Source of the DNA: Saprospiraceae bacterium
GTDB taxonomy: Bacteria; Bacteroidota; Bacteroidia; Chitinophagales; Saprospiraceae
Assembly: GCA_012031785.1 (NCBI GenBank)
Contig: JAAUTG010000001.1
Span: 1,896-65,895 of the forward strand
DNA length: 64,000 nucleotides
Direction: 5' to 3'
In this document: positions 13,206 to 61,712 of the stretch, one piece after another
Layout of the letters: each line of letters starts with the position of its first letter
Position numbering within the stretch: position 1 is the first letter of the stretch
Notes under the pieces: generated by a model
Told to the model about the DNA's origin: nothing
Database searches by the model: none
What the model saw: the letters and a program-made list of their open reading frames with translations, nothing else
Translations under genes and position numbers: made by a program

Positions 13206-13791
13206 GGATACCTTGGTAGCGGAAGCCACAAAGATCGTTTTGGAGGAACACCCTGGAGTTAATGCTGACGAACCGATGGTTCACGCCAAAATCCTAGTAG
13301 AGGCAGTTGGGCTAGGCGGTGCGGCTATATCTAGTATAGGGCTTGACCTCTACGCGCTGCTCAAGGAGCAGCTTGGGCTTAAGTTGCATCATACCCTTGG
13401 AGAAACTGATAATTTTCTGGAGTTTGTATCCTTAACGTACTCTACCAGGGAGGGTTACACAACCATCTGGCGCGTAGCTAAGGCGTTAGTCACGCTAGTT
13501 CAGTATTGGACTGGCGATGATCCGAACAGTAAGCAGTTGTCGAACATCATGAATATTCCCAAGGACTTTTACAATCTAGCAGACGATCAAAAACGAAAAA
13601 TCGTTGCCGATGTCATGAGCGGCGACCTGGATAGAGATGAAATGATCCTAACTGTAAAAAGTGGAGGCGCGTTAATCAAGGGGACATACAAAATCTCACA
13701 GGTCGGAGACGATTTTCAAATCGTGATTACGTGCAGCCCAATTGTTTGGGATAGCATGAAGCCGCGTATCAGTAAGTTTTTAGAAGAATAG
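13195..13791 (+). CDS. hypothetical protein
   Basis: ATG 13195 is preceded by gaaggaggg. The ORF-track start at 13066 lies inside the previous gene. Confidence 0.5.
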   Translation: MGIKDTLVAEATKIVLEEHPGVNADEPMVHAKILVEAVGLGGAAISSIGLDLYALLKEQLGLKLHHTLGETDNFLEFVSLTYSTREGYTTIWRVAKALVTLVQYWTGDDPNSKQLSNIMNIPKDFYNLADDQKRKIVADVMSGDLDRDEMILTVKSGGALIKGTYKISQVGDDFQIVITCSPIVWDSMKPRISKFLEE

Positions 13792-42900: not shown

Positions 42901-44715
42901 ATCACCTTCATTTGGTAATCCAATATCGCCATATTGAACTGGCGACACAAACACACTATTGCCAAGCGATTGACGTAGATATTCAGATGCGCCCTCTAGC
43001 CCGCGCTCACTGGCGGCTTCGTCATACATCGCGGATGCACCCCGAACAGACTGACCACGACTAGTGTCCAGTCTCCGTTGCACAATCTCTGGAATGGCGG
43101 TGCTTTGGGCTTCTTCAACCACTTCCGACATTCGATCAAATCGCGCTTGGGCGCGTTCAAACGCTGATCGTATTTTAGAGGGGATGATGTGTTCTTGCGG
43201 AAGTTCAGGTGCAGCATATTGTTGCGGGAGCGGTGCTAACTGCTCCGCGCCAAGAACACGACCACTGAATGTATTTACGCCAGCAGCGTTCATGGAGCCT
43301 TCGTGAGTAGCAGGCTCTCCGCTACTAATTTTGGCATTTACATATGCCTGAGCGCGTTTTGTGCGTTCAATTTGTTCATTTTGAACATTTTGAACACTTT
43401 CACGCTTCAATTTATTGGCGCTCTCTACGGAAATATGACCTTCGCCGTCATCCATATAGAAGCCAGTCTTTGAGATGAAACGCCCGTACTGCCAGTCCCG
43501 CCTATTTTTAACCTTAGCGGTTCGTCCTTCAATGCCGCCCCTAAAAAATTCCTGCGACTTAACAATATCCCCTTCAGGGGAAATGAGTTGGACGATCTGA
43601 GATGGGGCTAACCCAGATTTCGTATCCCAACTTGAAAAATCACCAGCATCTACCGTCGTCGTGAATGTCGTTGCTGGGCTGCCGTCTTCCGTTGCGATGA
43701 GGTGCTGTAAATGAAATTCTTGTCCAGTTTCACGATGCCGTGCCATGAGCAGTGTTTTTTGATGTACACGCTCATATGGTGTCGTTTCCTTTTGCGATTG
43801 GTCTTGGACTTTTTTATACCTGTTTTCGCGATAGATTTCATAATCGCCTAACCCGTACTTTTCTTGGATTTGGCTATCTGAGAGTTTATTAGCATCACTA
43901 TCAAGAACTTGCTCCTCTACCACTGAGTAAATTTGGCGAACAGTATATTGGCTTTTATAGTCATCCCATGATGGGGCAGAATAATAAGCTGCCCCCATGT
44001 TGATATGCTCAAGACCAGCCGACTGGATCAAAATGTCCCGATCTGCTTGAGGAACATCCATCCCAGCTATTTTGCGATGCGTTCCAACAGGGTCTTTCGC
44101 TGCCGCTTCCTGTAGCCCGCCCAGGGTGGTAGTTAGCCCGCCTAAATGCAGTTCCCGTACACCTGAACGCGAAACGCCAAGTTGATTAATCGGGATTTCG
44201 TCCCGCTCAGCACCAGCCGCCATCGCTTCGTAAGCGGCTCTTGTATCTTTTCGCCTTTGATAATCGGCAGAGGGTGATAGGTATCCATAAGGCTCTTGCT
44301 GCGCTGCGTCAGTTGCTGGCTGAACAGGAGACGATAGCTTTGGAGTAAAGGATTGCGACGAAAATGATGGGGAATCATTCCCTGGATAAGGGGGAGTAAT
44401 CGGATCAGGGACGATTGAGTTTGCCGCTAATAATGGAATGCTTGGAGCATCGCTAGCAGATTGAGAAAATGCCGCAATTGATGTCAGGTTTGGTAAACCC
44501 GCCTCATCAACTGTCTGGCTGATAGACTGGTCAGTGACACCAGACCAATCAAACCTAGCCGACACTTCTGGTAATGCGCGGGATTTACGTTGCGCTGGCG
44601 TTTTACAGTTGTCGCAATAGACCCTATTGCCATGTCCAGTTACGGGCGCACCGCAATTTTTACATTGCCTCATTTTGAAGTTTTCGCGCCTCCCACTCAG
44701 CTTGACGCGCAGCAT
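33931..44715 (-). CDS. giant tape-measure-slot protein (3,594 codons): N-terminal zinc ribbon, about 2,270-aa cargo region with a DFDGD double-psi beta-barrel polymerase-like signature, Pro-rich linker, about 1,300-aa TMP-like C-terminus
   Basis: Uninterrupted ORF immediately downstream of the G/GT chaperones. CKNCGAPVTGHGNRVYCDNCK. RFPEVSPFHNNVGLKIGIY...NMVFNPIVAQVLAGDFDGDESRGILNWV (DFDGD = 39943-39957). EPPSEPPSEPP linker near 37830-37915. Gly/Ala/Met-rich hydrophobic C-terminal third with FANxAxGMG repeats. An alternative start is ATG 44673. Confidence 0.85.
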   Translation of the reverse strand: MLRVKLSGRRENFKMRQCKNCGAPVTGHGNRVYCDNCKTPAQRKSRALPEVSARFDWSGVTDQSISQTVDEAGLPNLTSIAAFSQSASDAPSIPLLAANSIVPDPITPPYPGNDSPSFSSQSFTPKLSSPVQPATDAAQQEPYGYLSPSADYQRRKDTRAAYEAMAAGAERDEIPINQLGVSRSGVRELHLGGLTTTLGGLQEAAAKDPVGTHRKIAGMDVPQADRDILIQSAGLEHINMGAAYYSAPSWDDYKSQYTVRQIYSVVEEQVLDSDANKLSDSQIQEKYGLGDYEIYRENRYKKVQDQSQKETTPYERVHQKTLLMARHRETGQEFHLQHLIATEDGSPATTFTTTVDAGDFSSWDTKSGLAPSQIVQLISPEGDIVKSQEFFRGGIEGRTAKVKNRRDWQYGRFISKTGFYMDDGEGHISVESANKLKRESVQNVQNEQIERTKRAQAYVNAKISSGEPATHEGSMNAAGVNTFSGRVLGAEQLAPLPQQYAAPELPQEHIIPSKIRSAFERAQARFDRMSEVVEEAQSTAIPEIVQRRLDTSRGQSVRGASAMYDEAASERGLEGASEYLRQSLGNSVFVSPVQYGDIGLPNEGDRAGASVPYVEFGRLRRTEDGQQAMENYKLFHDSRYGTWGVMSEDNYSGLNIVPSMVKDDGTIVNPVQVLKMGIENSLSPDTEGRKPNLWNALSNFGLMHVNWTGYTPTERRRLSRSFFVGRSMPAEAGGIGEKRNNEQIWSAVDAAREKGESIYMRRNSQHAFGLRGLLGEAGFTKRIRRQADEKGNMQIVRDEQGSPVYDFYVNKIKRIQQLDISGTNVRAAAGVGMLLPEFTSQFTEGGITGAVTGQSAPTTGFIMQSAFRTSKLGIPEGQRMTLPTYGVRDFTRVVAPNADIAEKLFFTDSDEGGLPPIGEGYKYGGSMSDFERMTGRKARGTMVAIEGVENITKNGEDAQKIKYQVYTDQVAYKYKDKGEGQFRDAAYFDQYGAGVESVSALPSAKDMMTFAHKGFEANFTVKQAAKQIAQFNRAAKKSDAAIAQVARDEMDLLRQLSPADLRAAGIEGIDKFDPTKTGHVMAALNANQVSGQISPVMSNLFGLAATDWMYSQGEIKQIKETVGVHEYEQHLTGLLADSMTDQIMSQRNITDRGIAFKLATEQIERQAGTGEDRISNLHQMMMGSSANTISTAETVTGKPQQSAQMFTDAQFFRYDKDGKRIGLKSSVGATNVDVTMNDAVYNVNQLEQARWEGRRPMGRVTAESAFWMYQDNPQLFQALMNQSKTGQLDDPSLTAFRAYASNFEGSGITGQTVDTPTGKQHRLSTGDSVNPFDIDTYRMAQSEVASLYGKESADYQRKMVAKAYGMERGDAMSLQTSSGEQVNIMGGAIAASFTTISDDDKMVSGVGQSVIEAMEAQAKYHDAKQAHTQGVISDEELHQFALANDQAIKGALETQGEHFSSAEVMKDVLGFSVVNIGGKAHGAGSVPENMTVMSEQFLMELTGLDQWEDQSSAAKELRRIVNGRGREQLTLSAKRFPEVSPFHNNVGLKIGIYEDLVAEKSQVVKGLLNPGKNMVFNPIVAQVLAGDFDGDESRGILNWVTDKRGKWRGGNVRRISPRQLAKAAKNMPFSEWYKQVEEAAERRPSRMATDTAKNSQEKGYKTDDQLYAAYTEEEKAAAAQIGQQYNAEHRGRRIMAMAQLQNVAAKNLYGGQGLPGTHLSNIVSEATSYKAVSAYQSSLDREVLGDPGFLRMYDMSTQAIFREGGRIAIPMRDSKNPLQYATIQEGERAGSKKYETFASDADFVQNMIETAATTAMPQRGDFETEADYLAAREASDDEYRRTSALSFAAQLIPLERLAEVSNADAENNVGYMAEGGALYNQVQATSDALMNIRNADIIASQSGETTEAVRGRAMQQLFGSFRMRGVRNAAEYANLDAERGGVMYTGIMGAANARAEMRREGSSKFDWIETSANPFMKSATRMAREVAKVMRVAYLDRPPTVDERSSASMTQQISGAFSSFFKGTRQLLSRVGIVGGVEAGEEGGISKIAVDQKLADVGYTPTPAEIQEQRAASQATKSTLDISRLAGGEAVGIEQSPPVRELSLANLGGTSSPILPAENLVTLRPVEPQPAKPQILLPNAPRPSAVVRPDGIIEASPPVKPEAALNLGGMVGLSQLIDDKPQDYNIPDNIIPAWKRGTHAYNMPEDFVPAWQRGNTPIEGFEPIDYSSIPPTEAGQYLDRDASGKIVSRPVSSERSRPLKHPTEGKRYLEPPSEPPSEPPDETTLTPEPPERPGRGSGRSPSAGEVYHAVFKGVQAGMAVAQEEKTFYVHADRDMDKRSYELATDIEAYASPEGRNIQTSKQAKAAQSFLDSTSDRFRNLRKRAKQGSLNAEERMFLSKSKEVLLPYLPGHDAGSVFSDDEIESIDQLAAAFNAYSGEFYREAGYTPETLHLATRELPDRVATPAHAKSMMTVKQSMTLNQKMALGLRAMGGVGAEGVLNQNAAAMGLGAGGLDLLPAATGLKELNAEFKELIAKLPEATKLTREQHKMVTKLIDLSETVQAVTAQMDEKTARQREDMFGGKSVSQLTKDEAIQLFTGKSAAEATPEDLAKSRDFKDWYTLYGREMNADGKSVRGVAGAIAPYQAALADADIRMDLGQLTQESPFGERAFRGVVGAYYAGSAARHLYQQTVGESLKSIREFEGTEDIYAMLGIGERGDIRKQRFAAERAEMFQARAAAEMYLPIMQGMSDLLGSADAGRIVEGAKRSTAIFGMGLMGSQMLSQSGFLGAGKTFGQASMVAAAGSAGLSAGNLVYNQLSGASEFGGLSEMEMIEEAFTQSGNLSWMATDIGLAASNRFLGTDFELTGVRSQGVKDRVREEYERKYHLLDDDIEFAEQNDVSTVEIGEYRNRLRTTLAAPRQESSSYVNYARNATLIGERTGLGKEGIANYQGAMSSLYAGGNTREAMGIEIMEIDRLSPYIGSSAFDKLAPSITQEVSNYQRMAGIGSNLRQFIDDPDKVKEIIDNLLPHAFGDYVSDSAIRQAGRVVNQGMNITSRSALDLSSSVGVMSALSGKPESIQDLMTEVVANRSSIYYAQGIDSQGMQPLLDATTQMGLSVSEAQANNLRSLSQLEMRYGNTNDRLFRQVAGLSGVQGEFAVQAAGIGAGMGYNFSALDIPTSFTNLNEAQSQAALQLTQSLQLNTQSQSFSDLLGSRSGMVGGLFGRQLQMGTGSILDASRYYWTGSGSAEEMATMNQARDRMFNMTDQQAQRAASVTAMTERYGLGYGGRGMTAFDDLVDDPLRFERASNYMGLYEQLAIEPTERDMAAAARKSQRGEQYSRAYRAFSTTAYEMGLDGQTSLQIAENLTRRGIVNQRDVGLASGFANTAFGMGVDASDAMAVGGMLVNQGLTSQPQAQAVSTFANLAYGMGMGGQEAMAFAGGMAKQYSSPLQMQSFANMSNLGFNMGLSSQQSLAFGQMVTDAGYTPFQQSRISSLSSTLMGMGVEGTGALAFGFGNADMSQLGMVQLQRFLGGDQMMFSRAFQGGLEGLDSLGLSLDNIRMPSGRKLAPTMDYRTGLSASKTSSLMLSTTHPIR

Positions 44716-52289: not shown

Positions 52290-54101
52290 TTATAAATCGA
52301 AATCTTCAAATGTGTCATAACGCCCAAGATTATCCTCCTCTATTTGCTCCCCGTACCTGCTTGCGGGTACAACGGGTTCGTTTACGAATTTATCCATTGC
52401 TTCTGCATAGGATGGCTCAAGCCCATACACCAATACCAATAGCGCGGCGACAATATCTTGCTTGATCCCAGTATCGGGTAATTTGTAGCCAGTTATTTGC
52501 TTGATAATAGGCGTAATTTTTGATGGCACTTTCACGTGACCATCTGCAAATATTTTTTTAGCAAGTGTCAAATACCGAAACTTATTCGCTCCACCAAAGT
52601 TGGCTGGCATTGCGCCAATTTCGTTTAACCCAATCGGCAGGGAGTCATAACCCGCCTGGAAGCCAGTCCCGTCGTAAAATGCGCTGGCGTAAGTGCGGTA
52701 CTTAGAATTCAATTCCTTATAGGCGGAAATCCAAGGATTTGGGCTACCCATACCAGACACCCACCAGAATTCAGTCAGTCTAGCTGGTATTGTTGGGAAA
52801 TTCGTTATATTGAAAACCATCAGAACGGGGCTGTTACGTTCTGGGGGGTTCTCTGTGCCAGGATCAGCCACCAACATGTAGACCTGACCAGATTCTGGCG
52901 GGATCGCCCAATGCGTAACCAGATCGCCATTAGCTTCCCAAATATAGTCCTTTAGGCGGCGGTTGATACCTGTGTCATGAAGGTCATCCAGTGTGGGGGA
53001 ACGCATCGCATCAACAGTAGAGGTCGGGAAGATGCTACCAGAACGCTGTGGCGGGCGACCACCTAGATACTGTTCTCTTTTCAAGGGGTTTTCGCCGACA
53101 TTGCGTAGGTAGCGATCAAGATCATAAGGGGTTAAATAGAAGTTGTCTGCCGTGTTGGGAGACGACACGTATATCTCCCGACTACCAGCGACACCCTTCT
53201 CATACAAATCCCACAATTCAACATTGCCGTGATCTTCAGCATTGGCAATCAGGTAGAGCGTTCCAAGCCTGCGCCGTCCGCCAACCATCCCGCGAAAACG
53301 GGTGGAAACGTGTCGCCTCAACTCAGTAAGGTTTTCAACGCCTTCAGCTTGATCTAGTGCTGCGCTGTCGGCGGTAATGGTCAATATTTTTTGACTATCC
53401 CGCTCCATTGAGCGTGTTTCAATCACACTATTATAACCGATCTGACTGCTCCCCAAGAAAAATCGCCAGGGTCTGGTCGTGCGTTTTAATAAAAACTTTT
53501 GTTCATACACGGTATCCGTGATAAGCATATTTGCCAGTTTCGTTCCTTCCTCAGCCTGGTCATTTTTGGGGGCAAGGAGGAGTGAACGATAATGGCGCAG
53601 CGTACCCGCGTAATACAACATTTCGGCTACTGTGTTCAGCGTTTTGCCTGAGCCATAGCCTCCCAAGATAATTCTCAACTCCTGTTTGGCTTTCCGCATA
53701 TCCATGAACCATTTGGGTAGACGAAACCCGTGACGGTGGTGGAAGACAATATCCTGACCTTCCTGCTGGATTCGAAACCTTTTCAAGTGATAGTAATCAT
53801 GCGCGTCATATTTTTCTTTAGTGACGGGCAAATATGCTCCGTTTTCCAGTTCCACAAAGTAATCTGGTTGTGATAGGTCATCCCAAATTTCATAGATAGC
53901 TTCATAGCCATCAATCCAACGCTGAAGAGTGGCTATAAAGGGTGGATAGTCAATCACTTTCAGAATGTCATCTGGGACTGGTCGCCACCATGTTCCAGTG
54001 TATTCCCCCTGGAGAAAGCGATTTAGGAAGAAATTAGGCTGATCGTAACGGATTGACTGCTCAATAATCGCTAGATCAGCCTTATTCAGCTTGTCGGGCA
54101 T
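52290..54101 (-). CDS. terL: terminase large subunit
   Basis: Walker A ILGGYGSGKTLN, an ATPase-then-nuclease layout, 603 codons, and a position upstream of the portal gene. Confidence 0.85.
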   Translation of the reverse strand: MPDKLNKADLAIIEQSIRYDQPNFFLNRFLQGEYTGTWWRPVPDDILKVIDYPPFIATLQRWIDGYEAIYEIWDDLSQPDYFVELENGAYLPVTKEKYDAHDYYHLKRFRIQQEGQDIVFHHRHGFRLPKWFMDMRKAKQELRIILGGYGSGKTLNTVAEMLYYAGTLRHYRSLLLAPKNDQAEEGTKLANMLITDTVYEQKFLLKRTTRPWRFFLGSSQIGYNSVIETRSMERDSQKILTITADSAALDQAEGVENLTELRRHVSTRFRGMVGGRRRLGTLYLIANAEDHGNVELWDLYEKGVAGSREIYVSSPNTADNFYLTPYDLDRYLRNVGENPLKREQYLGGRPPQRSGSIFPTSTVDAMRSPTLDDLHDTGINRRLKDYIWEANGDLVTHWAIPPESGQVYMLVADPGTENPPERNSPVLMVFNITNFPTIPARLTEFWWVSGMGSPNPWISAYKELNSKYRTYASAFYDGTGFQAGYDSLPIGLNEIGAMPANFGGANKFRYLTLAKKIFADGHVKVPSKITPIIKQITGYKLPDTGIKQDIVAALLVLVYGLEPSYAEAMDKFVNEPVVPASRYGEQIEEDNLGRYDTFEDFDL

Positions 54102-56966: not shown

Positions 56967-57092
56967 GGTTTTTGGGGTTTTGTGCGCGATGGGTCTAATT
57001 CAATAGTTAGTTTATAGCCAAAGTGAGCATGGGGCTAACGCGCTACATAGGGTAGCCACTTCATGCTTACTGAGTCCCATAGGAGGATTATC

Positions 57093-57383
57093 ATGGCTGA
57101 AATTTTCTCAATGAGCCAACTGTCAGAGTACGACAATGATGGGAATACCATCGTTGTTAGGGTCAGACAAGTTGGTAGTGACACGCTTGAGTACACTGCG
57201 CGTTTGCGCGGTGTGCCGAAGCACATCGGATCATTCACTTCCCGTTGGGGGGTGAATGAGATCGAAACCGACCAGATCGTTAAGATTGGGTTGGAATTTT
57301 TACAGGAAAACTTGACTGGTACGCATCTGCGTTTCCGCAAGCTATTTCTGGCAGAGGTCGGGGGCAAGCTGTATAAGCTATAG
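57093..57383 (+). CDS. hypothetical protein
   Basis: ATG lies after ataggaggattatc. Confidence 0.5.
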   Translation: MAEIFSMSQLSEYDNDGNTIVVRVRQVGSDTLEYTARLRGVPKHIGSFTSRWGVNEIETDQIVKIGLEFLQENLTGTHLRFRKLFLAEVGGKLYKL

Positions 57384-57398
57384 CCTCAACATTATATC

Positions 57399-57427
57399 GG
57401 GCGGCTGGCGTTTGCTGGTTGACCCTA
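57399..57427 (+). repeat. conserved 29-nt intergenic box, copy 1 (GGCGGCTGGCGTTTGCTGGTTGACCCTAC)
   Basis: Aligns with 58587-58614 and 59617-59644. It abuts the 5' arm of stem-loop A. Confidence 0.7.
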
Positions 57428-57460
57428 CCTGAAATGGGCAAACCTTTGAGAGGTTTCAGG
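57428..57460 (+). promoter_or_regulatory. bipartite intergenic stem-loop A
   Basis: Outer stem CCTGA/TCAGG, 5' bulge AATGGGCA, inner stem AACCT/AGGTT, loop TTGAG. Confidence 0.65.
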
Positions 57461-57505
57461 CAATAACGCCAATATGCCCATTCTAGTCCACAGAAGGAGT
57501 ATTTC

Positions 57506-57694
57506 ATGTGGAATAAGTTTTTGTTCGTCCTGCGACTATGTGTCGCAGGCACCATCTGGGGCATCGCTGGTATCCTGATGGTAATCGCCGACGAACGCCT
57601 GTCGGCAAAGGCATATAGAGCGATGTATTTCCAAGTCGCGCTGTACGCCCTGATGTTTGGGTTTGTGGTAGCTGAAGGGCTACTGCAAACATAA
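57506..57694 (+). CDS. small membrane protein (two hydrophobic helices)
   Basis: RBS gaaggag. FLFVLRLCVAGTIWGIAGILMVI and VALYALMFGFVVA. Confidence 0.5.
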   Translation: MWNKFLFVLRLCVAGTIWGIAGILMVIADERLSAKAYRAMYFQVALYALMFGFVVAEGLLQT

Positions 57695-57709
57695 TCCCCA
57701 TGCGGGGAT

Positions 57710-57744
57710 GCTACCAGTGCGCCAGCCTTCGTGAAGGCGGTAGC
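57710..57744 (+). promoter_or_regulatory. bipartite intergenic stem-loop B
   Basis: Outer stem GCTACC/GGTAGC, bulge AGTGCGCCA, inner stem GCCTT/AAGGC, loop CGTG. Preceded by the GC hairpin ATCCCC-atgc-GGGGAT (57694-57709). Confidence 0.7.
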
Positions 57745-57769
57745 GATCACGATACTGATCGGCGCAATA

Positions 57770-57795
57770 TAGTCATGGGAGGATTTTATCATGAC
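57770..57795 (+). repeat. identical 26-nt translation-initiation module TAGTCATGGGAGGATTTTATCATGAC, copy 1
   Basis: Exact copies also occur at 58675-58700 and 59720-59745. Confidence 0.85.
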
Positions 57796-57997
57796 TGGTT
57801 TCAAATTGTTTTTCTTGTTCGTTCGCTTATACATTGCCCTCATGGGTAATGGCACAGAACAGCCCATCCCGTCAGTTGTGTATGATCGGGTCGCCTCAAC
57901 TGAGGCAATCACCGATATCTACGCTTCTATGGCGGCAGCCCCATCTGGTGTTGTGGAAGAAGAACGAAGTACCTGGCGGGGGCTAGGTACTAAATAG
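57791..57997 (+). CDS. small protein with hydrophobic N-terminus
   Basis: MTGFKLFFLFVRLYIALMG. Confidence 0.5.
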   Translation: MTGFKLFFLFVRLYIALMGNGTEQPIPSVVYDRVASTEAITDIYASMAAAPSGVVEEERSTWRGLGTK

Positions 57998-58027
57998 TTA
58001 GAGAACAGGGTGTGGGATGCCCTGTTT

Positions 58028-58060
58028 CCACCGCGTATCTTCACGTATGTGCCGTGCGGT
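58028..58060 (+). promoter_or_regulatory. bipartite intergenic stem-loop H
   Basis: Outer stem CACCG/CGGTG, bulge CGTATCTT, inner stem CACG/CGTG, loop TATGTGC. Preceded by the hairpin ACAGGG-N9-CCCTGT (58004-58024). Confidence 0.6.
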
Positions 58061-58102
58061 GAAGGCTATGCCTTTGGCATTTAGTCTCTAAGGAGATGAG
58101 TT

Positions 58103-58573
58103 ATGTTCGAAATTAGTTTATTGGTGATCGCAGCTTTAGTCGTTGTGGTCTTGGCGTTGTCATTAGCGGTGTTGTTTCGCCGTGAAAATGATAGGGATAA
58201 CGCTGAGGTATCCGATCTGCAAGCCCGTATTGAACGCCTTCGGGCGGACAACGATCGCCTGATAGACCTGTTGCAGGACACATCAGCCTATGCGTTGGCT
58301 TCCAATGTGGTCACTCTAATGCGTATCGCCGCAAGCCTGGGGTTCAGACCCCAGGTGGAAAAAGGCGAAGACGGTGGTGTTCATATCGTAGCTAACTTCC
58401 CGCATGGGGGGTTTAAGCTCCTACTATTCATCATCCAAGGTGAACAGGTGTTTGCTAATTCCGCAGAGGGGCGGATTGCCGTTCCTCTGGAAGATGGGCT
58501 TATTGATCCACACGGGCTTAATCAGCTTTTGGGATTCAATAAACAACACCAAGACTACTCCGAAGAGGAGTAA
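58103..58573 (+). CDS. membrane-anchored coiled-coil protein
   Basis: N-terminal LLVIAALVVVVLALSLAVLF, then ARIERLRADNDRLIDLL. Confidence 0.5.
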   Translation: MFEISLLVIAALVVVVLALSLAVLFRRENDRDNAEVSDLQARIERLRADNDRLIDLLQDTSAYALASNVVTLMRIAASLGFRPQVEKGEDGGVHIVANFPHGGFKLLLFIIQGEQVFANSAEGRIAVPLEDGLIDPHGLNQLLGFNKQHQDYSEEE

Positions 58574-58586
58574 GTTTTTGGAAACT

Positions 58587-58614
58587 GGGGGACTGGCGTT
58601 TGCTGGTCTACCCT
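58587..58614 (+). repeat. conserved intergenic box, copy 2 (GGGGACTGGCGTTTGCTGGTCTACCCTA)
   Basis: Aligns with copies 1 and 3. Confidence 0.7.
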
Positions 58615-58648
58615 ACTGCCAGTGCATCAGCCTACGTGAGGCGGCAGT
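58615..58648 (+). promoter_or_regulatory. bipartite intergenic stem-loop C
   Basis: Outer stem ACTGCC/GGCAGT, bulge AGTGCATCA, inner stem GCCT/AGGC, loop ACGTG. Confidence 0.7.
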
Positions 58649-58674
58649 GTCATCAAGACCGATAGATGCGAACT

Positions 58675-58700
58675 TAGTCATGGGAGGATTTTATCATGAC
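58675..58700 (+). repeat. 26-nt translation-initiation module, copy 2
   Basis: Exact repeat. Confidence 0.85.
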
Positions 58701-59250
58701 AATCAAAACCAATTTTTTCCAAAACGGCAAAGTTGAAGGCAAGGGGTGGGCGGATCGAAAGTTCCGATCCACCGAATCCATGCCTGCGTTCGACGACATT
58801 GACGATGTTGATGATGCCACCGAAGTTGTTGAGGAGGAAGATGGTGATGACTGGCGGCAATACGCCGTTAGTAGTTCTGAGGACTACGCCCCACCAACGT
58901 GGTTGGAGACTGACGACAGTATCATCTTGTACCTAGACCGCGAACAGGGGCGCGTGTTTTTTACGCGACACCCTGAGCTAGTAACTGGTGAGGTGCTGAA
59001 GCGGGCGAAGTCCATTGATGAGGTGCTTGAGTTTAACGACGCTACCGATTTAGAGTTAGGCTGGGGATCGCTGCCGTTGTTCACCGACGGAGTCCTGGAA
59101 GAACTCCTGAATTGGTCGTTATGGCAGGAGGGCGATTGTTCGTATATCCTACCAATCTACCAACCGCCCAGCCGTGAAGCGAAGTGGTTGTCCAACGCGA
59201 CAACGATAGGTGCTGCGGAATATGCCGCCAGCCTGTTAGGTTTAGTTTAG
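58696..59250 (+). CDS. hypothetical acidic protein
   Basis: 184 codons with an acidic tract FDDIDDVDDATEVVEEEDGDDW. Confidence 0.5.
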   Translation: MTIKTNFFQNGKVEGKGWADRKFRSTESMPAFDDIDDVDDATEVVEEEDGDDWRQYAVSSSEDYAPPTWLETDDSIILYLDREQGRVFFTRHPELVTGEVLKRAKSIDEVLEFNDATDLELGWGSLPLFTDGVLEELLNWSLWQEGDCSYILPIYQPPSREAKWLSNATTIGAAEYAASLLGLV

Positions 59251-59274
59251 TCCGTTGCCCCTGGAAAAGGGGCT

Positions 59275-59308
59275 GCTATCAGTGCATCTGCCTACGTGAG
59301 GCGGTAGC
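59275..59308 (+). promoter_or_regulatory. bipartite intergenic stem-loop D
   Basis: Outer stem GCTATC/GGTAGC (one T-G pair), bulge AGTGCATCT, inner stem GCCT/AGGC, loop ACGTG. Preceded by GCCCCT-ggaaa-AGGGGC (59257-59273). Confidence 0.7.
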
Positions 59309-59352
59309 GTCATTAAGACGAAAAGATGCAAATAGGCATAAGGAGGATTATT

Positions 59353-59601
59353 ATGCCAAACACTTTCAGCAAGCACCAGAATCGGAATACCTTTGTTTGC
59401 GGCTTTTATGAAGTCGCATGGGGGCTTGACCCCCACATTGGATGGTTCTGCGATGTGTTTATCGGGGGTGAGTTAGTTTTGGAATTGTATCCCAAAACTA
59501 ATCGGGAATTATTCAACGCTCTCCATGAGGTGGGCGTTGAAATTACCAAGAAGGGGTTGAAAAACTCCCTCACTGGTAAAAACGGGACGCACTCCCTCTA
59601 A
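59353..59601 (+). CDS. hypothetical protein
   Basis: ATG lies after ataaggaggattatt. Confidence 0.5.
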   Translation: MPNTFSKHQNRNTFVCGFYEVAWGLDPHIGWFCDVFIGGELVLELYPKTNRELFNALHEVGVEITKKGLKNSLTGKNGTHSL

Positions 59602-59616
59602 GTGTGTTCTCAAATT

Positions 59617-59644
59617 AGGCGGCTAGCGTTTGCTGGCTGACCTT
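59617..59644 (+). repeat. conserved intergenic box, copy 3 (AGGCGGCTAGCGTTTGCTGGCTGACCTT)
   Basis: Aligns with copies 1 and 2. Confidence 0.7.
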
Positions 59645-59680
59645 ACGTGCAGTGGGCTAACCTTCGCGTTGGTTGCACGT
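59645..59680 (+). promoter_or_regulatory. bipartite intergenic stem-loop E
   Basis: Outer stem ACGTGC/GCACGT, bulge AGTGGGCT, inner stem AACC/GGTT, loop TTCGCGTT. Followed by an inverted copy of the stem-loop D GC hairpin (59682-59696). Confidence 0.65.
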
Positions 59681-59719
59681 GTCCCTTTTCCAGGGGCAGA
59701 AGCCTAAATCGCCAGCGTT

Positions 59720-59745
59720 TAGTCATGGGAGGATTTTATCATGAC
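59720..59745 (+). repeat. 26-nt translation-initiation module, copy 3
   Basis: Exact repeat. Copies 2 and 3 share 29 nt (TTAGTCATGGGAGGATTTTATCATGACAA). Confidence 0.85.
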
Positions 59746-60280
59746 AAAAATCTACTTGCACCATAATCCAGTTTCCGCTCAGTTCGTCAAAGGGCGCACA
59801 TCGCGCCTTTTGAAAGCCATTGAGAAAGGTGTTGTGCAGGTCGTCCCCTTGGACGGCTTGCCGCCCATATTCAGTGACCCGCGTAAGCGGGAGAGAATGG
59901 AAGTTGGATCGTTGAAGGTGAAAGCCTTCAAGGTTGCTGAGTGTGACTTCACATTTGCCAGTGTTCTGCATATTGGCAAAAATCGAACCACATTCCGTGA
60001 CCAGCTTTTCACGCTAGCCGACAGTATGTGGCTAGTACATGAGAGCGTGAGCAAGGACGATGGCAACCCATTGGAAAATGGGTGGCAGAATCTTCTGACA
60101 CCCTGGGCTATTGCGTGGCTGTATGAGGCGGGTTGCGAAATTATTTGGGTGAATAGCCCGAATAGGGTTGTGGACAACGCTTTCATTGACGGATATACCG
60201 CGCAGTCGTCATGGTTCAAGTCAATCCGCGCCACTGAGCCTATGCAGCTTCCGTCCATGCGGTGTCTCCAGCCAGAATAA
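59741..60280 (+). CDS. hypothetical protein
   Basis: 179-codon ORF. Confidence 0.5.
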   Translation: MTKIYLHHNPVSAQFVKGRTSRLLKAIEKGVVQVVPLDGLPPIFSDPRKRERMEVGSLKVKAFKVAECDFTFASVLHIGKNRTTFRDQLFTLADSMWLVHESVSKDDGNPLENGWQNLLTPWAIAWLYEAGCEIIWVNSPNRVVDNAFIDGYTAQSSWFKSIRATEPMQLPSMRCLQPE

Positions 60281-60310
60281 AAGTATATGCCCCCGCAGGA
60301 GAGGGGGCTG

Positions 60311-60343
60311 CCCTACGTAACTTCAGGTCTTCGTCCTGTAGGG
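60311..60343 (+). promoter_or_regulatory. bipartite intergenic stem-loop F
   Basis: Outer stem CCCTA/TAGGG, bulge CGTAACTT, inner stem CAGG/CCTG, loop TCTTCGT. Preceded by GCCCCC-N8-GGGGGC (60289-60308). Confidence 0.6.
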
Positions 60344-60362
60344 CTTAATCCAAGGAGTTTTA

Positions 60363-60638
60363 ATGATAGATTGGGAAATAGTAGCAGATTCTGAGGACTA
60401 CTGGCTAGACCAGTTGTTCTCAGAGCAAGCTGAGAGTGAATGCCTGGACTTCACGGGAGAAATCCCAGATGAAGCGGGCGGGTTTGACCACTTATTCATC
60501 CTCAGCCAAGAAGATGCGGAGAGACTGTCAGCGTTTGAGGAATGGATCGCTATGTATCCATTTTCATCCTCTGGCAGTACCGCCGCCGCCGCAGTGCTAT
60601 TCTCAAGGGACGACCAGGCGTTTGCGTACCTGGCTTGA
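60363..60638 (+). CDS. small highly acidic protein
   Basis: 91 codons. By my count 21 Asp+Glu against 2 Arg and no Lys. Confidence 0.5.
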   Translation: MIDWEIVADSEDYWLDQLFSEQAESECLDFTGEIPDEAGGFDHLFILSQEDAERLSAFEEWIAMYPFSSSGSTAAAAVLFSRDDQAFAYLA

Positions 60639-60661
60639 TCCCCAAGCCCCGAAAGGGGTTT

Positions 60662-60694
60662 CCCCAAGTATCCAACGTCCGCGCACGTTTGGGG
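60662..60694 (+). promoter_or_regulatory. bipartite intergenic stem-loop G
   Basis: Outer stem CCCCAA/TTGGGG, bulge GTATCCA, inner stem ACGT/ACGT, loop CCGCGC. Preceded by CCCC-gaaa-GGGG (60647-60658) and a degenerate box copy (60617-60645). Confidence 0.6.
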
Positions 60695-60720
60695 AGGTGC
60701 TATACTGAAAGGAGGTGTTA

Positions 60721-61533
60721 ATGCACAAAAAGGAGATCAGAGTGTTCTCACGGCATTCCGAACCGCATAGTAGCGGTTCTCACAACCGTATTTCCGCCGC
60801 CACTGTAGGCGGCTTCACAGTAGCGGGGAAAGACGCTATACGCACCCGCGCCCCAGCATTTCGCGTTTTGTGGGTAGTTACAATAGCCGTACTCCTAAGT
60901 TGCGCCGCGTGCCTAAATTGTGGCGTGGTTGGCAGAATTGCGGCTCAGTCACCACCAGACGGTTACAGTACCGTTGAGGCGTGCTTTGTGACCTGCGTAG
61001 CACCTGTGTTCCAAGCAGGGAAAGACGCAAGCCCAACCAGCACCCGCACGCCTACCAACCAGATTACAGTAACTGAAACCCTGACCCCAACTGCCACACG
61101 CACAACGGTTGGGCTGACGGCACAGCCTACTGTAAGGCTGACGGCTGCGGATACCGTAACCACACCGATCATCCCACCAATTCCCACGCTAGAGGAAATC
61201 CTCCCCCAGGCGACAAGCGTGCCAGATACCAGCGCACGCCCGATGATTACCGTAATCGCCCAGCAGGGGCTGATCGCATACCAATGCCCCGACCAAAGCC
61301 CGTTCGACGTGAAAAGATGTTCGCGTAACAATGCGCTCAACATCGGCTATGGCAGCGTCCACGAACTCAGAACAGACGTTGGTCATTGGTGCGTGAAATC
61401 CCCTGACGGCTACTACCGTGTAGCCGTTGGGCAACCACTTCGCTGGGTGGCTTGGATGCCAGTCTCACGGCGCGAAACCTACCTCCGCTTCCCCGCACCC
61501 AAATTCGACGTTTCATTGTGCTTTTCACCGTGA
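60721..61533 (+). CDS. membrane-anchored protein with Thr/Pro-rich linker
   Basis: ATG lies after gaaaggaggtgtta. VLWVVTIAVLLSCAACL transmembrane-like segment, then TSTRTPTNQITVTETLTPTATRTTV. Confidence 0.5.
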   Translation: MHKKEIRVFSRHSEPHSSGSHNRISAATVGGFTVAGKDAIRTRAPAFRVLWVVTIAVLLSCAACLNCGVVGRIAAQSPPDGYSTVEACFVTCVAPVFQAGKDASPTSTRTPTNQITVTETLTPTATRTTVGLTAQPTVRLTAADTVTTPIIPPIPTLEEILPQATSVPDTSARPMITVIAQQGLIAYQCPDQSPFDVKRCSRNNALNIGYGSVHELRTDVGHWCVKSPDGYYRVAVGQPLRWVAWMPVSRRETYLRFPAPKFDVSLCFSP

Positions 61534-61547
61534 AACACCACATCCCC

Positions 61548-61577
61548 TTGACAAGGGAACTACGGTAATGTTATCAT
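61548..61577 (+). promoter_or_regulatory. sigma70-type promoter TTGACA-N18-TATCAT
   Basis: Consensus -35 at 61548-61553 and -10 at 61572-61577. Confidence 0.6.
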
Positions 61578-61684: not shown

Positions 61685-61712
61685 TTGACAAACCTATTCG
61701 CTATGCTATGAT
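61685..61712 (+). promoter_or_regulatory. sigma70-type promoter TTGACA-N16-TGcTATGAT (extended -10)
   Basis: -35 at 61685-61690, TG at 61704-61705, -10 at 61707-61712. Confidence 0.6.

What the first reader, a model, noticed from the sequence alone, without database searches (positions are those of the whole stretch)
57428..60694. Eight intergenic copies of one irregular stem-loop architecture with compensatory stem changes
Each of eight consecutive intergenic spacers upstream of small + strand genes (starts 57506, 57791, 58103, 58696, 59353, 59741, 60363, 60721) contains the same design. There is an outer stem of 5-7 bp, a 7-9 nt unpaired bulge on the 5' side only, an inner stem of 4-5 bp stacked directly on the outer stem on the 3' side, and a 4-8 nt loop. 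The coordinates are A 57428-57460, B 57710-57744, H 58028-58060, C 58615-58648, D 59275-59308, E 59645-59680, F 60311-60343 and G 60662-60694. Stem sequences differ but stay complementary (GCTACC/GGTAGC, ACTGCC/GGCAGT, GCTATC/GGTAGC with G-U, CCCCAA/TTGGGG, CACCG/CGGTG and others). The bulges fall into three families: AGTGC(G/A)(C/T)C(A/T) in B, C and D; A(A/G)TGGGC(A/T) in A and E; CGTA(A/T)CTT in F and H, with GTATCCA in G. Covariation with a preserved geometry argues for a selected RNA or single-stranded DNA structure. Established parallels exist. T7 early mRNA is cut by host RNase III at intergenic irregular hairpins with an internal loop. N4 virion RNAP uses DNA hairpin promoters. Lambda nut sites are a box followed by a hairpin. 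I did not spot sigma70-like promoters inside 57.4-60.7 kb, so a processed polycistronic early transcript is my leading guess. Recognition by the polymerase-like virion protein is the more exciting alternative.
Basis: partly seen in the sequence, partly recalled or inferred. Interest (0 to 1): 0.8.

Follow-up and report, generated by a model that had tools for sequence, protein, structure and literature searches.

The report
Ribozyme-like pseudoknots between phage early genes
Every gap between the early genes of this uncultured phage holds a small hairpin followed by an RNA fold built like the hepatitis-delta-type self-cutting ribozyme, so the phage probably cuts its long early transcript into single-gene messages without host enzymes.

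Summary
The eight irregular stem-loops are real, are not chance, and covary.

In 7 of 8 copies it pairs with a segment downstream of the hairpin, and C-N-R-A sits 0-2 nt before that segment.

The element order is P1, P2, P3 hairpin, P1', L4/P4, CNRA, P2'. P1 is 5-7 bp and P3 is 3-4 bp. The loop reads U-N4-G in 8/8 copies, and a 2-nt P1.1 is possible. This is the nested double pseudoknot of HDV-like self-cleaving ribozymes.

A GC-rich hairpin ends 0-2 nt before each predicted cut site. The closest relative (TerL 44% identical) has five more copies with different stems. One of them weakly hits Rfam's HDV-F-prausnitzii model.

Best reading: a ribozyme array cuts a polycistronic early transcript into messages with structured ends.

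Caveats:
- G at +1, held to be invariant, is present in only 3/8 copies.
- Rfam and a theta-ribozyme model do not detect the window copies.
- Copy G lacks a clear 3' half.
- Nothing has been tested at the bench.

RNase III sites and hairpin promoters fit poorly.

The parts
57399..57425 (+). HP1-A: simple hairpin GGGCGGCUGGC-GUUU-GCUGGUUGACCC. It ends 2 nt before the predicted cut site.
   Evidence: The stem has 4 G-U pairs, so it forms only in + sense RNA. Near-identical copies precede C and E (family D1).
57428..57482 (+). Copy A, HDV-like double pseudoknot. P1 57428-32/57456-60, P2 57433-40/57475-82 (8 bp), P3 57441-44/57452-55, L3 UUUGAGA, J4/2 CCAAUA (57469-74). Predicted cut between 57427 and 57428.
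   Evidence: (P2 shuffle p = 0.0005)
57694..57709 (+). HP1-B: AUCCCC-AUGC-GGGGAU. It starts in the stop codon and abuts P1 with 0 nt between.
57710..57766 (+). Copy B. P1 GCUACC/GGUAGC, P2 UGCGCC/GGCGCA, P3 GCC/GGC, L3 UUCGUGAA, P1.1 UC/GA, J4/2 CUGAUC (C57755). Predicted cut between 57709 and 57710.
   Evidence: (p = 0.019)
58004..58026 (+). HP1-H: AACAGGG-UGUGGGAUG-CCCUGUU.
58029..58097 (+). Copy H. P1 CACCGC/GCGGUG, P2 AUCUUC/GGAGAU (one G-U; the 3' strand is the Shine-Dalgarno region), P3 ACG/CGU, L3 UAUGUGC, L4/P4 24 nt, J4/2 CUAA (C58088). Predicted cut between 58028 and 58029.
58587..58613 (+). HP1-C: same family as HP1-A.
58615..58670 (+). Copy C. P1 ACUGCC/GGCAGU, P2 UGCAUC/GAUGCG, P3 GCC/GGC, L3 UACGUGA, P1.1 AC/GU, J4/2 CCGAUA (58659-64). 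Predicted cut between 58614 and 58615.
59257..59273 (+). HP1-D: GCCCCU-GGAAA-AGGGGC.
59275..59330 (+). Copy D. P1 GCUAUC/GGUAGC, P2 UGCAUCU/AGAUGCA (7 bp), P3 GCC/GGC, L3 UACGUGA, P1.1 AC/GU, J4/2 CGAAA (C59319). Predicted cut between 59274 and 59275.
   Evidence: (p = 0.0115). The whole-spacer MFE itself picks P2+P3.
59617..59643 (+). HP1-E: same family as HP1-A.
59645..59706 (+). Copy E. P1 ACGUGC/GCACGU, P2 UGGGCU/AGCCUA (one G-U), P3 AACC/GGUU, L3 UUCGCGUU, P4 hairpin CCCUUUUCCAGGGG, J4/2 CAGA (C59697). Predicted cut between 59644 and 59645.
60289..60308 (+). HP1-F: GCCCCC-GCAGGAGA-GGGGGC.
60310..60359 (+). Copy F, minimal form. P1 GCCCUAC/GUAGGGC (7 bp), P2 AACUUC/GGAGUU (one G-U; the 3' strand is the Shine-Dalgarno region), P3 AGG/CCU, L3 UCUUCGU, L4 AAU, J4/2 CCAA (60350-53). 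No P1.1 pairing. Predicted cut between 60309 and 60310.
60646..60659 (+). HP1-G: GCCCC-GAAA-GGGGU.
60661..60697 (+). Copy G, core only. P1 UCCCCAA/UUGGGGA (7 bp), P3 ACG/CGU, L3 UCCGCGCA, P1.1 CC/GG. No convincing P2 3' strand or C-N-R-A; the best candidate is AGUAU/AUACU preceded by GGUGCU. Possibly decayed.
   Evidence: (not found by the descriptor)
57093..61533 (+). Row of nine small + strand genes (ATGs 57093, 57506, 57791, 58103, 58696, 59353, 59741, 60363, 60721). Its eight internal spacers carry the modules.
   Evidence: No sigma70-like + strand promoter inside the row.

Best explanation
Each early spacer encodes a two-part RNA module. The first part is a GC-rich hairpin (HP1). The second, 0-2 nt later, is an HDV-like nested double pseudoknot.

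Shown in silico. The 'bulge' is the 5' strand of P2. The inner hairpin is P3 plus L3. The 3' strand of P2 lies downstream, after a short linker or a P4 hairpin and a J4/2 that begins with C.

Inferred mechanism:
1. The nine genes from 57093 to 61533 are transcribed as one RNA.
2. As each module emerges it folds. The J4/2 cytosine and a bound metal ion catalyse attack of the 2'-OH of the nucleotide just 5' of P1, which is U in 6 of 8 copies.
3. The upstream message is released ending in HP1 with a 2',3'-cyclic phosphate.
4. The downstream message starts with a 5'-OH inside a compact fold, followed by its own Shine-Dalgarno sequence and ORF.

The outcome would be host-independent maturation of monocistronic early mRNAs with protected ends. 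It would do what RNase III cuts do for T7 early RNA.

In copies F and H the P2 3' strand is the Shine-Dalgarno sequence itself, so the fold may also gate translation. This is speculative.
For: 1. P2. The bulge is complementary to a downstream segment: 8 bp in A, 6 in B, 7 in D, and 6, 6 and 8 bp in L001 copies. Matched bulge/downstream pairs average 5.46 Watson-Crick bp, against 3.96 for mismatched pairs. Shuffle p values are 0.0005-0.04 for six copies.

2. Descriptor scan. I wrote an HDV-type descriptor requiring P1 >=5 bp, P2 >=5 bp, P3 3-5 bp, L3 starting with U, P1' abutting P3', and C-N-R-A 0-2 nt before P2'. It finds 7 of the 8 copies with scores of 26-31. Only two weaker hits (score 23) occur elsewhere on the + strand.
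   - Random 64 kb sequence gives 1.85 hits per strand.
   - Decoys with A, G or U in place of the C give 1-5 per strand.
   - Shuffled spacers match in 0-0.3% of cases, which predicts 0.007 of 8.

3. C-N-R-A precedes P2' in 12 of 13 copies. L3 has U at position 1 and G at position 6 in 13 of 13. These correspond to the catalytic C and to the U-G reverse wobble in L3 described in PMC10879173 and PMC3774820.

4. Covariation. P1 (6 pairs), P2 (5) and P3 (3) are 100% paired, each with changes on both sides. The covariation score is 1.05, against 0.245 for shuffles (0 of 500 reach it) and 0.07-0.16 for slid partners. P1.1 is paired in 65% of cells.

5. Relatives. L001, the closest relative (TerL 44% identical), has the same HP1 plus pseudoknot module in five early spacers with different stems. 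Its copy at 550-619 aligns full-length to Rfam RF02682, the HDV ribozyme of F. prausnitzii, at 27.3 bits.

6. Resemblance to published ribozymes. The segment layout and several linkers match published minimal HDV-like and theta ribozymes of tailed phages. Examples are GCC|U|UC|..|GGC with P1.1 GA, L4 AUAACG, and J4/2 CCGA, CUGA or CCAA.

7. HP1 ends 0-2 nt from the predicted cut site in all eight copies. Theta ribozymes likewise abut a structured tRNA 3' end.

8. Active phage and nematode HDV-like ribozymes have a P1.1 with only one Watson-Crick pair (PMC13635239). The weak P1.1 of several copies is therefore not disqualifying.
Against: - G at +1, with a G-U or G-C pair at the base of P1, is described as invariant or essential for active HDV-like ribozymes (PMC8495972). 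Here +1 is G only in B, D and F. It is A in C and E, C in A and H, and U in G.
- No Rfam HDV family hits the window, even at E <= 10.
- A covariance model built from 26 published theta ribozymes gives only 8.5 bits (E = 3.8) for copy C and 10 bits for L1e.
- P2 in E, F and H needs a G-U pair and has only 4 contiguous Watson-Crick pairs.
- Copy G lacks a recognisable P2' and J4/2. Copy F has no P1.1.
- J4/2 is up to 6 nt long.
- I partly defined the stems by searching for complementarity, so the pair counts lean towards the model.
- Only two genomes carry the module. Twenty-two other relatives show no enrichment.
- MFE z-scores are unremarkable.
- There are no RNA-end or cleavage data.
Confidence: 0.55

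Rival explanations
1. HDV-fold RNAs that no longer self-cleave, or never did. They would be structured 5'-leader pseudoknots acting as mRNA stabilisers, as translation elements, or as binding sites for a phage or host protein.
For: G at +1 is missing in 5 of 8 copies, and that base is reported as invariant in active ribozymes. The P2 3' strand overlaps the Shine-Dalgarno sequence in F and H. HDV-like ribozymes of retrotransposons are also credited with translation-initiation and protein-binding roles (PMC6765202). Sequence models do not recognise the copies.
Against: The catalytic-position C, the N-R-A after it and the U...G in L3 are kept in 12-13 of 13 copies, while the stems change freely. 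That pattern is hard to explain without active-site selection. The 0-2 nt coupling to an upstream hairpin makes most sense if a 3' end is created there.
Confidence: 0.2
2. Host RNase III (or another host endonuclease) processing sites, as in T7 early mRNA.
For: The elements are intergenic irregular hairpins in every spacer of a row with no internal promoter. The expected outcome, monocistronic mRNAs ending in hairpins, is the same.
Against: The helices total only 10-12 bp. From my own knowledge, E. coli-type RNase III substrates span about two helical turns. The model does not explain P2 pairing, C-N-R-A, the L3 signature or P1.1.
Confidence: 0.07
3. Recombination cassettes: repeated spacer modules that spread by recombination between early genes, like the promoter-early stem-loop cassettes of T4-type phages. 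The structure would be incidental or terminator-like.
For: Spacer parts are shared in a mosaic way. HP1 is shared by A, C and E. The hairpin is shared by B, C and D. An identical ribosome-binding stretch, TTAGTCATGGGAGGATTTTATCATGAC, is shared by B, C and E.
Against: Copies that share no sequence (F, G, H and the L001 copies) keep the same fold and the same few unpaired bases. Shuffling can coexist with ribozyme function and does not replace it.
Confidence: 0.08
4. DNA hairpin promoters read by the giant virion protein, as N4 virion RNA polymerase reads hairpins.
For: The window has a 3594-aa late-region protein with a GDFDGD motif. D-F-D-x-D is invariant in its five detectable homologs. No sigma70-like promoter lies in the row.
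Against: The loops are 7-8 nt, whereas the N4 type has 3 nt (my own knowledge). The conserved structure continues 15-40 nt beyond the hairpin as a pseudoknot. The HP1 stems of A, C and E need four G-U pairs, so they cannot form on the template strand. The distance from hairpin to start codon varies from 19 to 60 nt.
Confidence: 0.04
5. ops/JUMPstart-like antitermination sites that recruit an RfaH-type factor.
For: Copy D hits Rfam JUMPstart RF01707 (CAGUGCA...GGCGGUAGCGUC) at 18.1 bits, E = 2.2. B and D contain GGCGGTAGCG.
Against: The score is far below the gathering score of 35. The matching bases are the P1 3' strand, which covaries with its partner and is entirely different in A, E, F, G and H.
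Confidence: 0.02

Closest known systems
Minimal HDV-like ('theta') ribozymes of tailed phages (Kienbeck et al. 2024, PMC10879173)
   Same: Same order of elements and similar sizes: P1 6-7 bp, P2 about 6-7 bp, P3 3 bp, 7-nt L3 starting with U, 2-nt P1.1, short L4 or small P4, and J4/2 of the CUAA, CCGA, CUGA or CCAA type. The cut site directly abuts an upstream structured RNA. They occur in Caudoviricetes, in sense with neighbouring genes.
   Different: Theta ribozymes follow tRNAs, whereas this window has no tRNA. All published sequences start with G and have L3 U-NC-NCGY. Here +1 varies and L3 is often U-NN-GUGA. Published phage contigs in the list I read carry one or two copies several kb apart, not eight in 3.3 kb. 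A covariance model of 26 theta sequences does not detect these copies.
drz-Fpra-1, the HDV-like ribozyme of Faecalibacterium prausnitzii (Rfam RF02682)
   Same: L001 copy L1e aligns over the whole model (27.3 bits). It shares CACC-UCUNCGU-GGUG and GCU-R-AGAUGU around P3/L3 and J4/2-P2'.
   Different: The score is below the gathering score of 44, and the window copies are not hit. drz-Fpra-1 is a single element upstream of glmM (PMC6765202), not an array.
[quoted passage not shown]
   Same: The logic is the same: the ribozyme sits at the 5' end of a coding RNA and frees it from a longer co-transcript. For L1Tc that co-transcript is polycistronic. Primary sequence is very free apart from the catalytic C and a few other bases (PMC6765202, PMC3774820).
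   Different: These are eukaryotic mobile elements with one ribozyme per element. They have no paired upstream hairpin.
Clustered hammerhead ribozymes flanking prophage genes (Perreault et al. 2011, PMC3088659)
   Same: Several self-cleaving ribozymes lie within one polycistronic bacterial or phage RNA. They were shown to cut about 2 kb transcripts into the expected pieces.
   Different: They belong to a different ribozyme class, come in two or three copies, and do not sit at every gene boundary.
RNase III sites of T7 early mRNA
   Same: An irregular intergenic hairpin lies in each early spacer. Processing leaves messages that end in a hairpin (my own knowledge).
   Different: T7 sites need a host enzyme and about 20 bp of helix. 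Here the helices are short, and the conserved features are those of a self-cleaving fold.

Membership tests
HDV-like self-cleaving ribozymes | Nested double pseudoknot in the order P1 5', P2 5', P3 hairpin, P1 3', (P4), J4/2, P2 3' | tested here: met
   7 of 8 window copies and 5 of 5 L001 copies fit. P1, P2 and P3 are 100% paired with changes on both sides. Copy G lacks a clear P2 3' strand.
HDV-like self-cleaving ribozymes | P1 of at least 6 bp whose 3' strand directly follows the P3 3' strand (PMC8495972, PMC3774820) | tested here: met
   P1 is 6-7 bp in B, C, D, E, F, G and H. Copy A has 5 bp, or 7 bp in an alternative register. No nucleotide lies between P3' and P1' in any copy.
HDV-like self-cleaving ribozymes | Short P3 with an L3 that carries a U and a conserved G forming a reverse wobble (PMC3774820) | tested here: met
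   P3 is 3-4 bp. L3 is 7-8 nt with U at position 1 and G at position 6 in 13 of 13 copies. The pairing geometry itself cannot be tested.
HDV-like self-cleaving ribozymes | Cytosine at the first position of J4/2 (the catalytic C75 equivalent), followed by N-R-A | tested here: met
   C-N-R-A lies 0-2 nt before P2' in 7 of 8 window copies and 5 of 5 L001 copies. Decoys with A, G or U in that position stay at background level.
HDV-like self-cleaving ribozymes | Two-base-pair P1.1 between L3 and the two nucleotides after P1 3' | tested here: inconclusive
   Two Watson-Crick pairs in B, C, D, G and L1d. One pair in A, E, H, L1a and L1b. A wobble only in L1c and L1e. None in F. Overall 65% of cells are paired. 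Active natural ribozymes with one Watson-Crick pair exist.
HDV-like self-cleaving ribozymes | G at +1 forming the wobble (or G-C) pair at the base of P1, stated to be invariant or essential (PMC8495972) | tested here: not met
   +1 is G in B, D and F only. It is A in C and E, C in A and H, and U in G. Close homologs B, C and D swap G-C for A-U at this pair. All published descriptor-derived sequences start with G, which is partly by construction.
HDV-like self-cleaving ribozymes | Match to curated sequence/structure models (Rfam HDV families) | tested here: not met
   No hit in the window at gathering score or at E <= 10. Only L001 copy L1e reaches 27.3 bits against RF02682, whose gathering score is 44. 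HDV-like ribozymes are known for very low sequence conservation (PMC4870747).
HDV-like self-cleaving ribozymes | Site-specific self-scission giving 5'-OH and 2',3'-cyclic phosphate ends, abolished by C-to-U in J4/2 | not testable with these tools
   Needs in vitro transcription and cleavage assays, or end-specific RNA-seq.
Theta ribozymes (tRNA-associated subfamily) | Cut site within +/-5 nt of a tRNA 3' end, plus the refined descriptor (G1, P3 RCY, L3 U-NC-NCGY) | tested here: not met
   No tRNA in the window. The theta covariance model R1 gives at most 8.5 bits here. L3 and +1 deviate from the descriptor.
RNase III processing sites (T7 type) | About two turns of mostly double-stranded RNA interrupted by an internal loop (my own knowledge) | tested here: not met
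   P1 plus P3 total 10-12 bp.
N4-type hairpin promoters for virion RNA polymerase | 5-7 bp stem with a 3-nt loop, formed in template-strand DNA at a fixed distance from the start site (my own knowledge) | tested here: not met
   Loops are 7-8 nt. The stems of HP1 in A, C and E are G-U dependent. The distance to the ATG varies.
Intrinsic terminators | GC-rich hairpin followed by a U tract | tested here: not met
   On the + strand the terminator scan of 56.5-61.6 kb lists two sites. One lies at the end of gene 58103-58573. The other is the P3 3'/P1 3' part of copy E followed by UCCCUUUUCC. None corresponds to HP1, and no U tract follows HP1 or P1' in any other copy.

The most novel reading that the evidence does not exclude
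A phage operon in which every cistron boundary is cut by its own HDV-like ribozyme. This would be a self-contained 'ribozyme punctuation' system that matures early mRNAs, which may be made by a virion-borne polymerase, without any host RNase. It would include catalytically active natural variants that lack the supposedly invariant G at +1. In two copies the Shine-Dalgarno sequence is a strand of the ribozyme, so RNA folding would also time translation.
Probability: 0.35. Interest if true: 0.85.

Novelty: new variant of a known kind. Interest (0 to 1): 0.7.

Why it matters
The biological role of most bacterial and phage self-cleaving ribozymes is still open. Reviews only suggest that they might process polycistronic RNAs, and hundreds of phage HDV-like hits not linked to tRNAs are listed as 'function unknown'.

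An array of eight copies, one at each boundary of an early operon and each paired with a 3'-end hairpin, would give that idea a concrete and easily testable case. It would be a natural counterpart of the ribozyme insulators used in synthetic operons, and a host-independent analogue of T7's RNase III processing.

If the copies without G at +1 do cleave, the accepted sequence requirements of the HDV fold are too strict. Descriptor searches that demand G1 would then be missing part of the family.

Tried and rejected
- DNA search of the region against 50,697 phage records found nothing, and a protein search with the first 1000 aa of the giant protein also found nothing.
- Exact-match lookup of an early protein found nothing.
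- Single-protein TerL scan of IMG/VR found nothing.
- TerL-profile scans of IMG/VR and JGI metagenomes returned 37 loci, all <=40% identical. None carries the module.
- Exact-pattern scans of IMG/VR for the HP1 motif and for the B/C/D hairpin gave 0 hits.
- Rfam at gathering score gave nothing.
- The theta-ribozyme covariance model R1 gave only non-significant hits, although copy C and L1e ranked at or near the top. A first MAFFT alignment of 83 theta sequences was unusable because P1 lengths differ.
- Whole-spacer MFE z-scores are uninformative because the fold is pseudoknotted.
- Giant protein: no Pfam, PHROG or PDB hit by sequence or by profile. The word-index homolog search found nothing. 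AlphaFold on residues 1300-2100 with a 5-sequence alignment gave pLDDT 34.5, so I did not run a fold search.
- The AAAGTGARCA motif is not repeated in the window.
- I considered and rejected sigma54-like and sigma70-like readings of the GGCGTTTGCTGG and TTAGTC motifs. The spacing is wrong and they lie too close to the Shine-Dalgarno sequence.

Full report
**Setting**

The window is a phage-like contig. Its TerL (52290-54101, - strand) is identical to a protein on a 71-kb NCBI contig binned as 'Saprospiraceae bacterium'. The - strand from about 20.7 to 57 kb carries terminase, portal, a major-head-like protein and a 3594-aa ORF.

From 57093 a row of nine small + strand genes runs to 61533. The finding concerns the eight spacers inside that row. 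The window has no tRNA and no Rfam hit at gathering score. The region has no DNA match among 50,697 phage records.

Yes. The eight elements are at the stated coordinates with the stated stems. Folding them singly returns the outer stem, 5' bulge and inner hairpin for B, C, E and G. It returns close variants for A, F and H.

The shape is not rare in a loose scan, which gives about 45 hits per strand in 64 kb. That predicts 0.19 of 8 spacers, against 6 of 8 found by the same strict script. The other two (D and G) fail only through greedy extension into terminal G-U pairs.

Whole-spacer folding energies are not unusual, with z-scores from -2.4 to +0.2. The case rests on architecture and covariation, not on stability.

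First, each irregular hairpin is preceded by another, simple GC-rich hairpin (HP1). HP1 starts just after the stop codon and ends 0-2 nt before the outer stem. In A, C and E, HP1 is a near-identical GGCGGCUGGC-GUUU-GCUGGUUGACC with four G-U pairs. It can therefore form only in + sense RNA.

Second, the 'bulge' is complementary to a segment downstream of the hairpin:

| Copy | Bulge strand / downstream strand |
|---|---|
| A | AAUGGGCA / UGCCCAUU |
| B | UGCGCC / GGCGCA |
| C | UGCAUC / GAUGCG |
| D | UGCAUCU / AGAUGCA |
| E | UGGGCU / AGCCUA |
| F | AACUUC / GGAGUU |
| H | AUCUUC / GGAGAU |

Matched bulge/downstream pairs give 5.46 contiguous Watson-Crick pairs on average. Mismatched, non-homologous pairs give 3.96. 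Shuffle p values are 0.0005 (A), 0.019 (B), 0.0115 (D) and 0.01-0.04 for three L001 copies. C, E, F and H are not individually significant on Watson-Crick pairs alone.

The bulge sequence is free to vary as long as its partner follows.

**The fold**

Reading 5' to 3', each element runs as follows:

1. outer-stem 5' strand (P1)
2. bulge (P2 5')
3. inner hairpin (P3 plus L3)
4. outer-stem 3' strand (P1'), abutting P3'
5. two nucleotides that can pair with L3 positions 2-3 (P1.1)
6. a linker of 3-24 nt, which is a hairpin in E
7. a junction beginning C-N-R-A
8. P2 3'

This is the nested double pseudoknot of HDV-like self-cleaving ribozymes. In that family the cut falls at the first nucleotide of P1, and the catalytic cytosine is the first base of J4/2 (PMC4908430, PMC10879173).

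The published, delimited theta/minimal HDV-like sequences of tailed phages have the same layout. They share pieces as specific as GCC|U|UC|..|GGC with P1.1 partner GA, L4 AUAACG, and J4/2 CCGA, CUGA or CCAA.

**Statistical tests of the fold**

I wrote a descriptor for this fold and applied the decoy control used by Kienbeck et al., replacing the catalytic C by A, G or U.

- On the window's + strand the C version gives nine hits. Seven are copies A, B, H, C, D, E and F, with scores of 26-31. Two weaker hits (score 23) lie elsewhere (13428-13488 and 29858-29922).
- The - strand gives three hits. The decoys give 1-5 per strand. Random 64-kb sequences average 1.85.
- Shuffled spacers match in 0-0.3% of trials, which predicts 0.007 of 8.
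- C-N-R-A lies 0-2 nt before P2' in 12 of 13 copies. L3 has U at position 1 and G at position 6 in all 13. This matches the conserved L3 G that forms a reverse wobble with an L3 U (PMC3774820).

For a pair count I joined manually delimited segments of the 13 copies with constant spacers, a technical device that forces an ungapped alignment. P1 (6 pairs), P2 (5) and P3 (3) are 100% paired, and every pair shows changes on both sides. The covariation score is 1.05, against 0.245 in shuffles (0 of 500 reach it) and 0.07-0.16 when the partners are slid. P1.1 is paired in 65% of cells.

Because the stems, P2 above all, were defined by looking for complementarity, these counts lean towards the model. 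The descriptor, decoy and shuffle tests are the less biased evidence.

**Relatives**

TerL homologs are few and distant. The closest is L001, at 44% identity, from a Logan assembly. It has the same gene order, including a 3587-aa protein. It carries HP1 plus the pseudoknot in five early spacers, with unrelated stems but the same L3 (UCUGCGU, UUCGCGU, UUUGUGA) and the same J4/2 (CCGA, CUGA, CACA).

On L001's early-sense strand the descriptor gives 5 hits with C, against 0-2 for the decoys.

An Rfam scan of L001-L003 returns RF02682, the HDV ribozyme of F. prausnitzii. The hit is full-length and sits exactly on copy L1e (550-619, - strand), at 27.3 bits against a gathering score of 44 (E = 0.55).

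Twenty-two other relatives (TerL <=40% identical) show no enrichment: 17 hits with C against 19-23 for the decoys. Their early spacers hold other conserved hairpins. The module is therefore lineage-restricted.

**Negative and discordant results**

- Rfam's HDV families do not hit the window copies even at E <= 10.
- A covariance model built only from 26 published theta ribozymes gives 8.5 bits (E = 3.8) for copy C and 10 bits for L1e. These rank at or near the top but are not significant.
- Most important, G at +1 is described as the one invariant base of the substrate strand, and the G-U pair there as essential (PMC8495972). Here +1 is G only in B, D and F. The close homologs B, C and D swap G-C for A-U at that pair.
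- Copy G keeps a very canonical core (P1 of 7 bp, P3 ACG/CGU, L3 UCCGCGCA, P1.1 CC/GG) but has no convincing P2' or J4/2.
- Copy F has no P1.1.

One mitigating point concerns P1.1. Active phage (Ackermannviridae) and nematode HDV-like ribozymes have only one Watson-Crick pair there (PMC13635239).

A second mitigating point concerns G1. Every natural example found by descriptor was required to start with G. Its invariance in nature is therefore partly an ascertainment effect, and this last step is my inference.

**Mechanism proposed**

The fold and its conserved unpaired bases are shown in silico. Everything that follows is inferred.

The row 57093-61533 has no sigma70-like + strand promoter. 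Two good promoter-like sites lie just after it: TTGACA-18-TATCAT at 61548-61577 and TTGACA-16-TATGAT at 61685-61712 (read). I therefore take the row to be one transcript.

Each module would cut itself between HP1 and P1. The upstream message would end in HP1 with a cyclic phosphate. The downstream message would begin with a 5'-OH inside the ribozyme fold, followed by its own Shine-Dalgarno sequence and ORF.

This resembles three known cases:
- Theta ribozymes trim the 3' end of an abutting tRNA.
- HDV-like ribozymes free retrotransposon mRNAs from co-transcripts.
- Clustered hammerheads cut prophage polycistronic RNAs.

In F and H the P2 3' strand is the Shine-Dalgarno sequence, so folding may also gate translation. 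That is speculative.

**Rivals**

- *A non-cleaving HDV-fold leader* is the main rival because of the missing G1. It does not explain why the catalytic-position C and the neighbouring bases are kept.
- *RNase III sites* fit the outcome but not the anatomy: the helices are 10-12 bp and four conserved features go unexplained.
- *N4-like hairpin promoters* are contradicted by the loop size, the extension into a pseudoknot and the G-U dependence.
- *The JUMPstart/ops resemblance* of copies B and D (18.1 bits, E = 2.2) lies in a covarying stem strand and is absent from the other copies.
- *Cassette shuffling* of spacer parts is visible and is compatible with the ribozyme reading.

**Verdict**

I file the elements as working like HDV-like ribozymes. 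Five defining features were tested: four are met and P1.1 is inconclusive. G1 and the curated-model match are not met, and catalysis could not be tested.

An eight-copy array that punctuates an operon and is coupled to 3' hairpins has no counterpart in the literature I could search. I rate it a new variant of a known kind, with interest 0.7.

Noticed in passing
window 33931-44715 (- strand): The 3594-aa ORF has no Pfam, PHROG or PDB match. It carries GDFDGD at residue 1587. D-F-D-x-D is invariant in its only five detectable homologs, all 2959-4304 aa long. The motif is reminiscent of the metal-binding loop of two-barrel RNA polymerases, such as the virion polymerases of crAss-like phages (my own knowledge). 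AlphaFold on residues 1300-2100 failed (pLDDT 34.5).
   Followed up: partly
window 57020-57071: This is the leader of the first early gene. AAAGUGAGCAUG (57020-57031) can pair with CAUGCUUACU (57062-57071) around a small hairpin, GCUAC-AUAGG-GUAGC. An AAGTGA(A/G)C motif also lies upstream of the first early gene in L001, L002 and L003. It occurs only once in the window. It is a candidate early promoter and/or 5'-end stabiliser for the primary transcript.
   Followed up: partly
window 57484-57490, 57771-57777, 58084-58090, 58676-58682, 59333-59339, 59721-59727, 60344-60350, 60701-60707; also L001 early spacers: A TTAGTC/TTAATC-like box lies 3-8 nt upstream of the Shine-Dalgarno sequence of every early gene in the window and in L001. 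In F and H it is part of the ribozyme linker L4. In the other copies it lies after P2 3'. It is too close to the Shine-Dalgarno sequence to be a -10 box. Its function is unexplained.
   Followed up: no
window 57769-57797, 58674-58702, 59719-59747; 57400-57446, 58588-58634, 59618-59664: Spacer parts are shared in a mosaic pattern. An identical ribosome-binding stretch, TTAGTCATGGGAGGATTTTATCATGAC, occurs in B, C and E. Near-identical HP1 occurs in A, C and E. Similar hairpins occur in B, C and D. This suggests recombination between spacer modules, reminiscent of the T4 promoter-early stem-loop cassettes.
   Followed up: no
window 61548-61577 and 61685-61712: Two strong sigma70-like promoters (TTGACA-18-TATCAT and TTGACA-16-TATGAT) sit in the 375-nt gap after the last early gene, ahead of the next + strand genes. 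None occurs inside the ribozyme-bearing row.
   Followed up: partly
window 59280-59311 (copy D) and 57739-57748 (copy B): The P1 3' strand reads GGCGGUAGCG(U). Together with CAGUGCA upstream, this gives a weak Rfam JUMPstart (ops) hit (18.1 bits, E = 2.2). It is probably coincidence, because the strand covaries and differs in the other copies.
   Followed up: yes
L002 5200-9700 (- strand genes): This more distant relative (TerL 37-38% identical) has different conserved spacer elements. They include a hairpin with loop UGACGUUAAAC and three-way structures with T-arm-like GGUUCGAUUCC. There is also a weak tRNA-like mascRNA hit at 6959-7026 (19.2 bits, E = 2.4). U-tract terminators are present as well. 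It may use a different way of punctuating early transcripts. ARAGORN finds no tRNA there.
   Followed up: partly
whole window: The source contig is deposited as a 'Saprospiraceae bacterium' MAG contig, but it is a complete-looking phage genome segment with strong GGAGG ribosome-binding sites. The binning therefore says little about the host.
   Followed up: no
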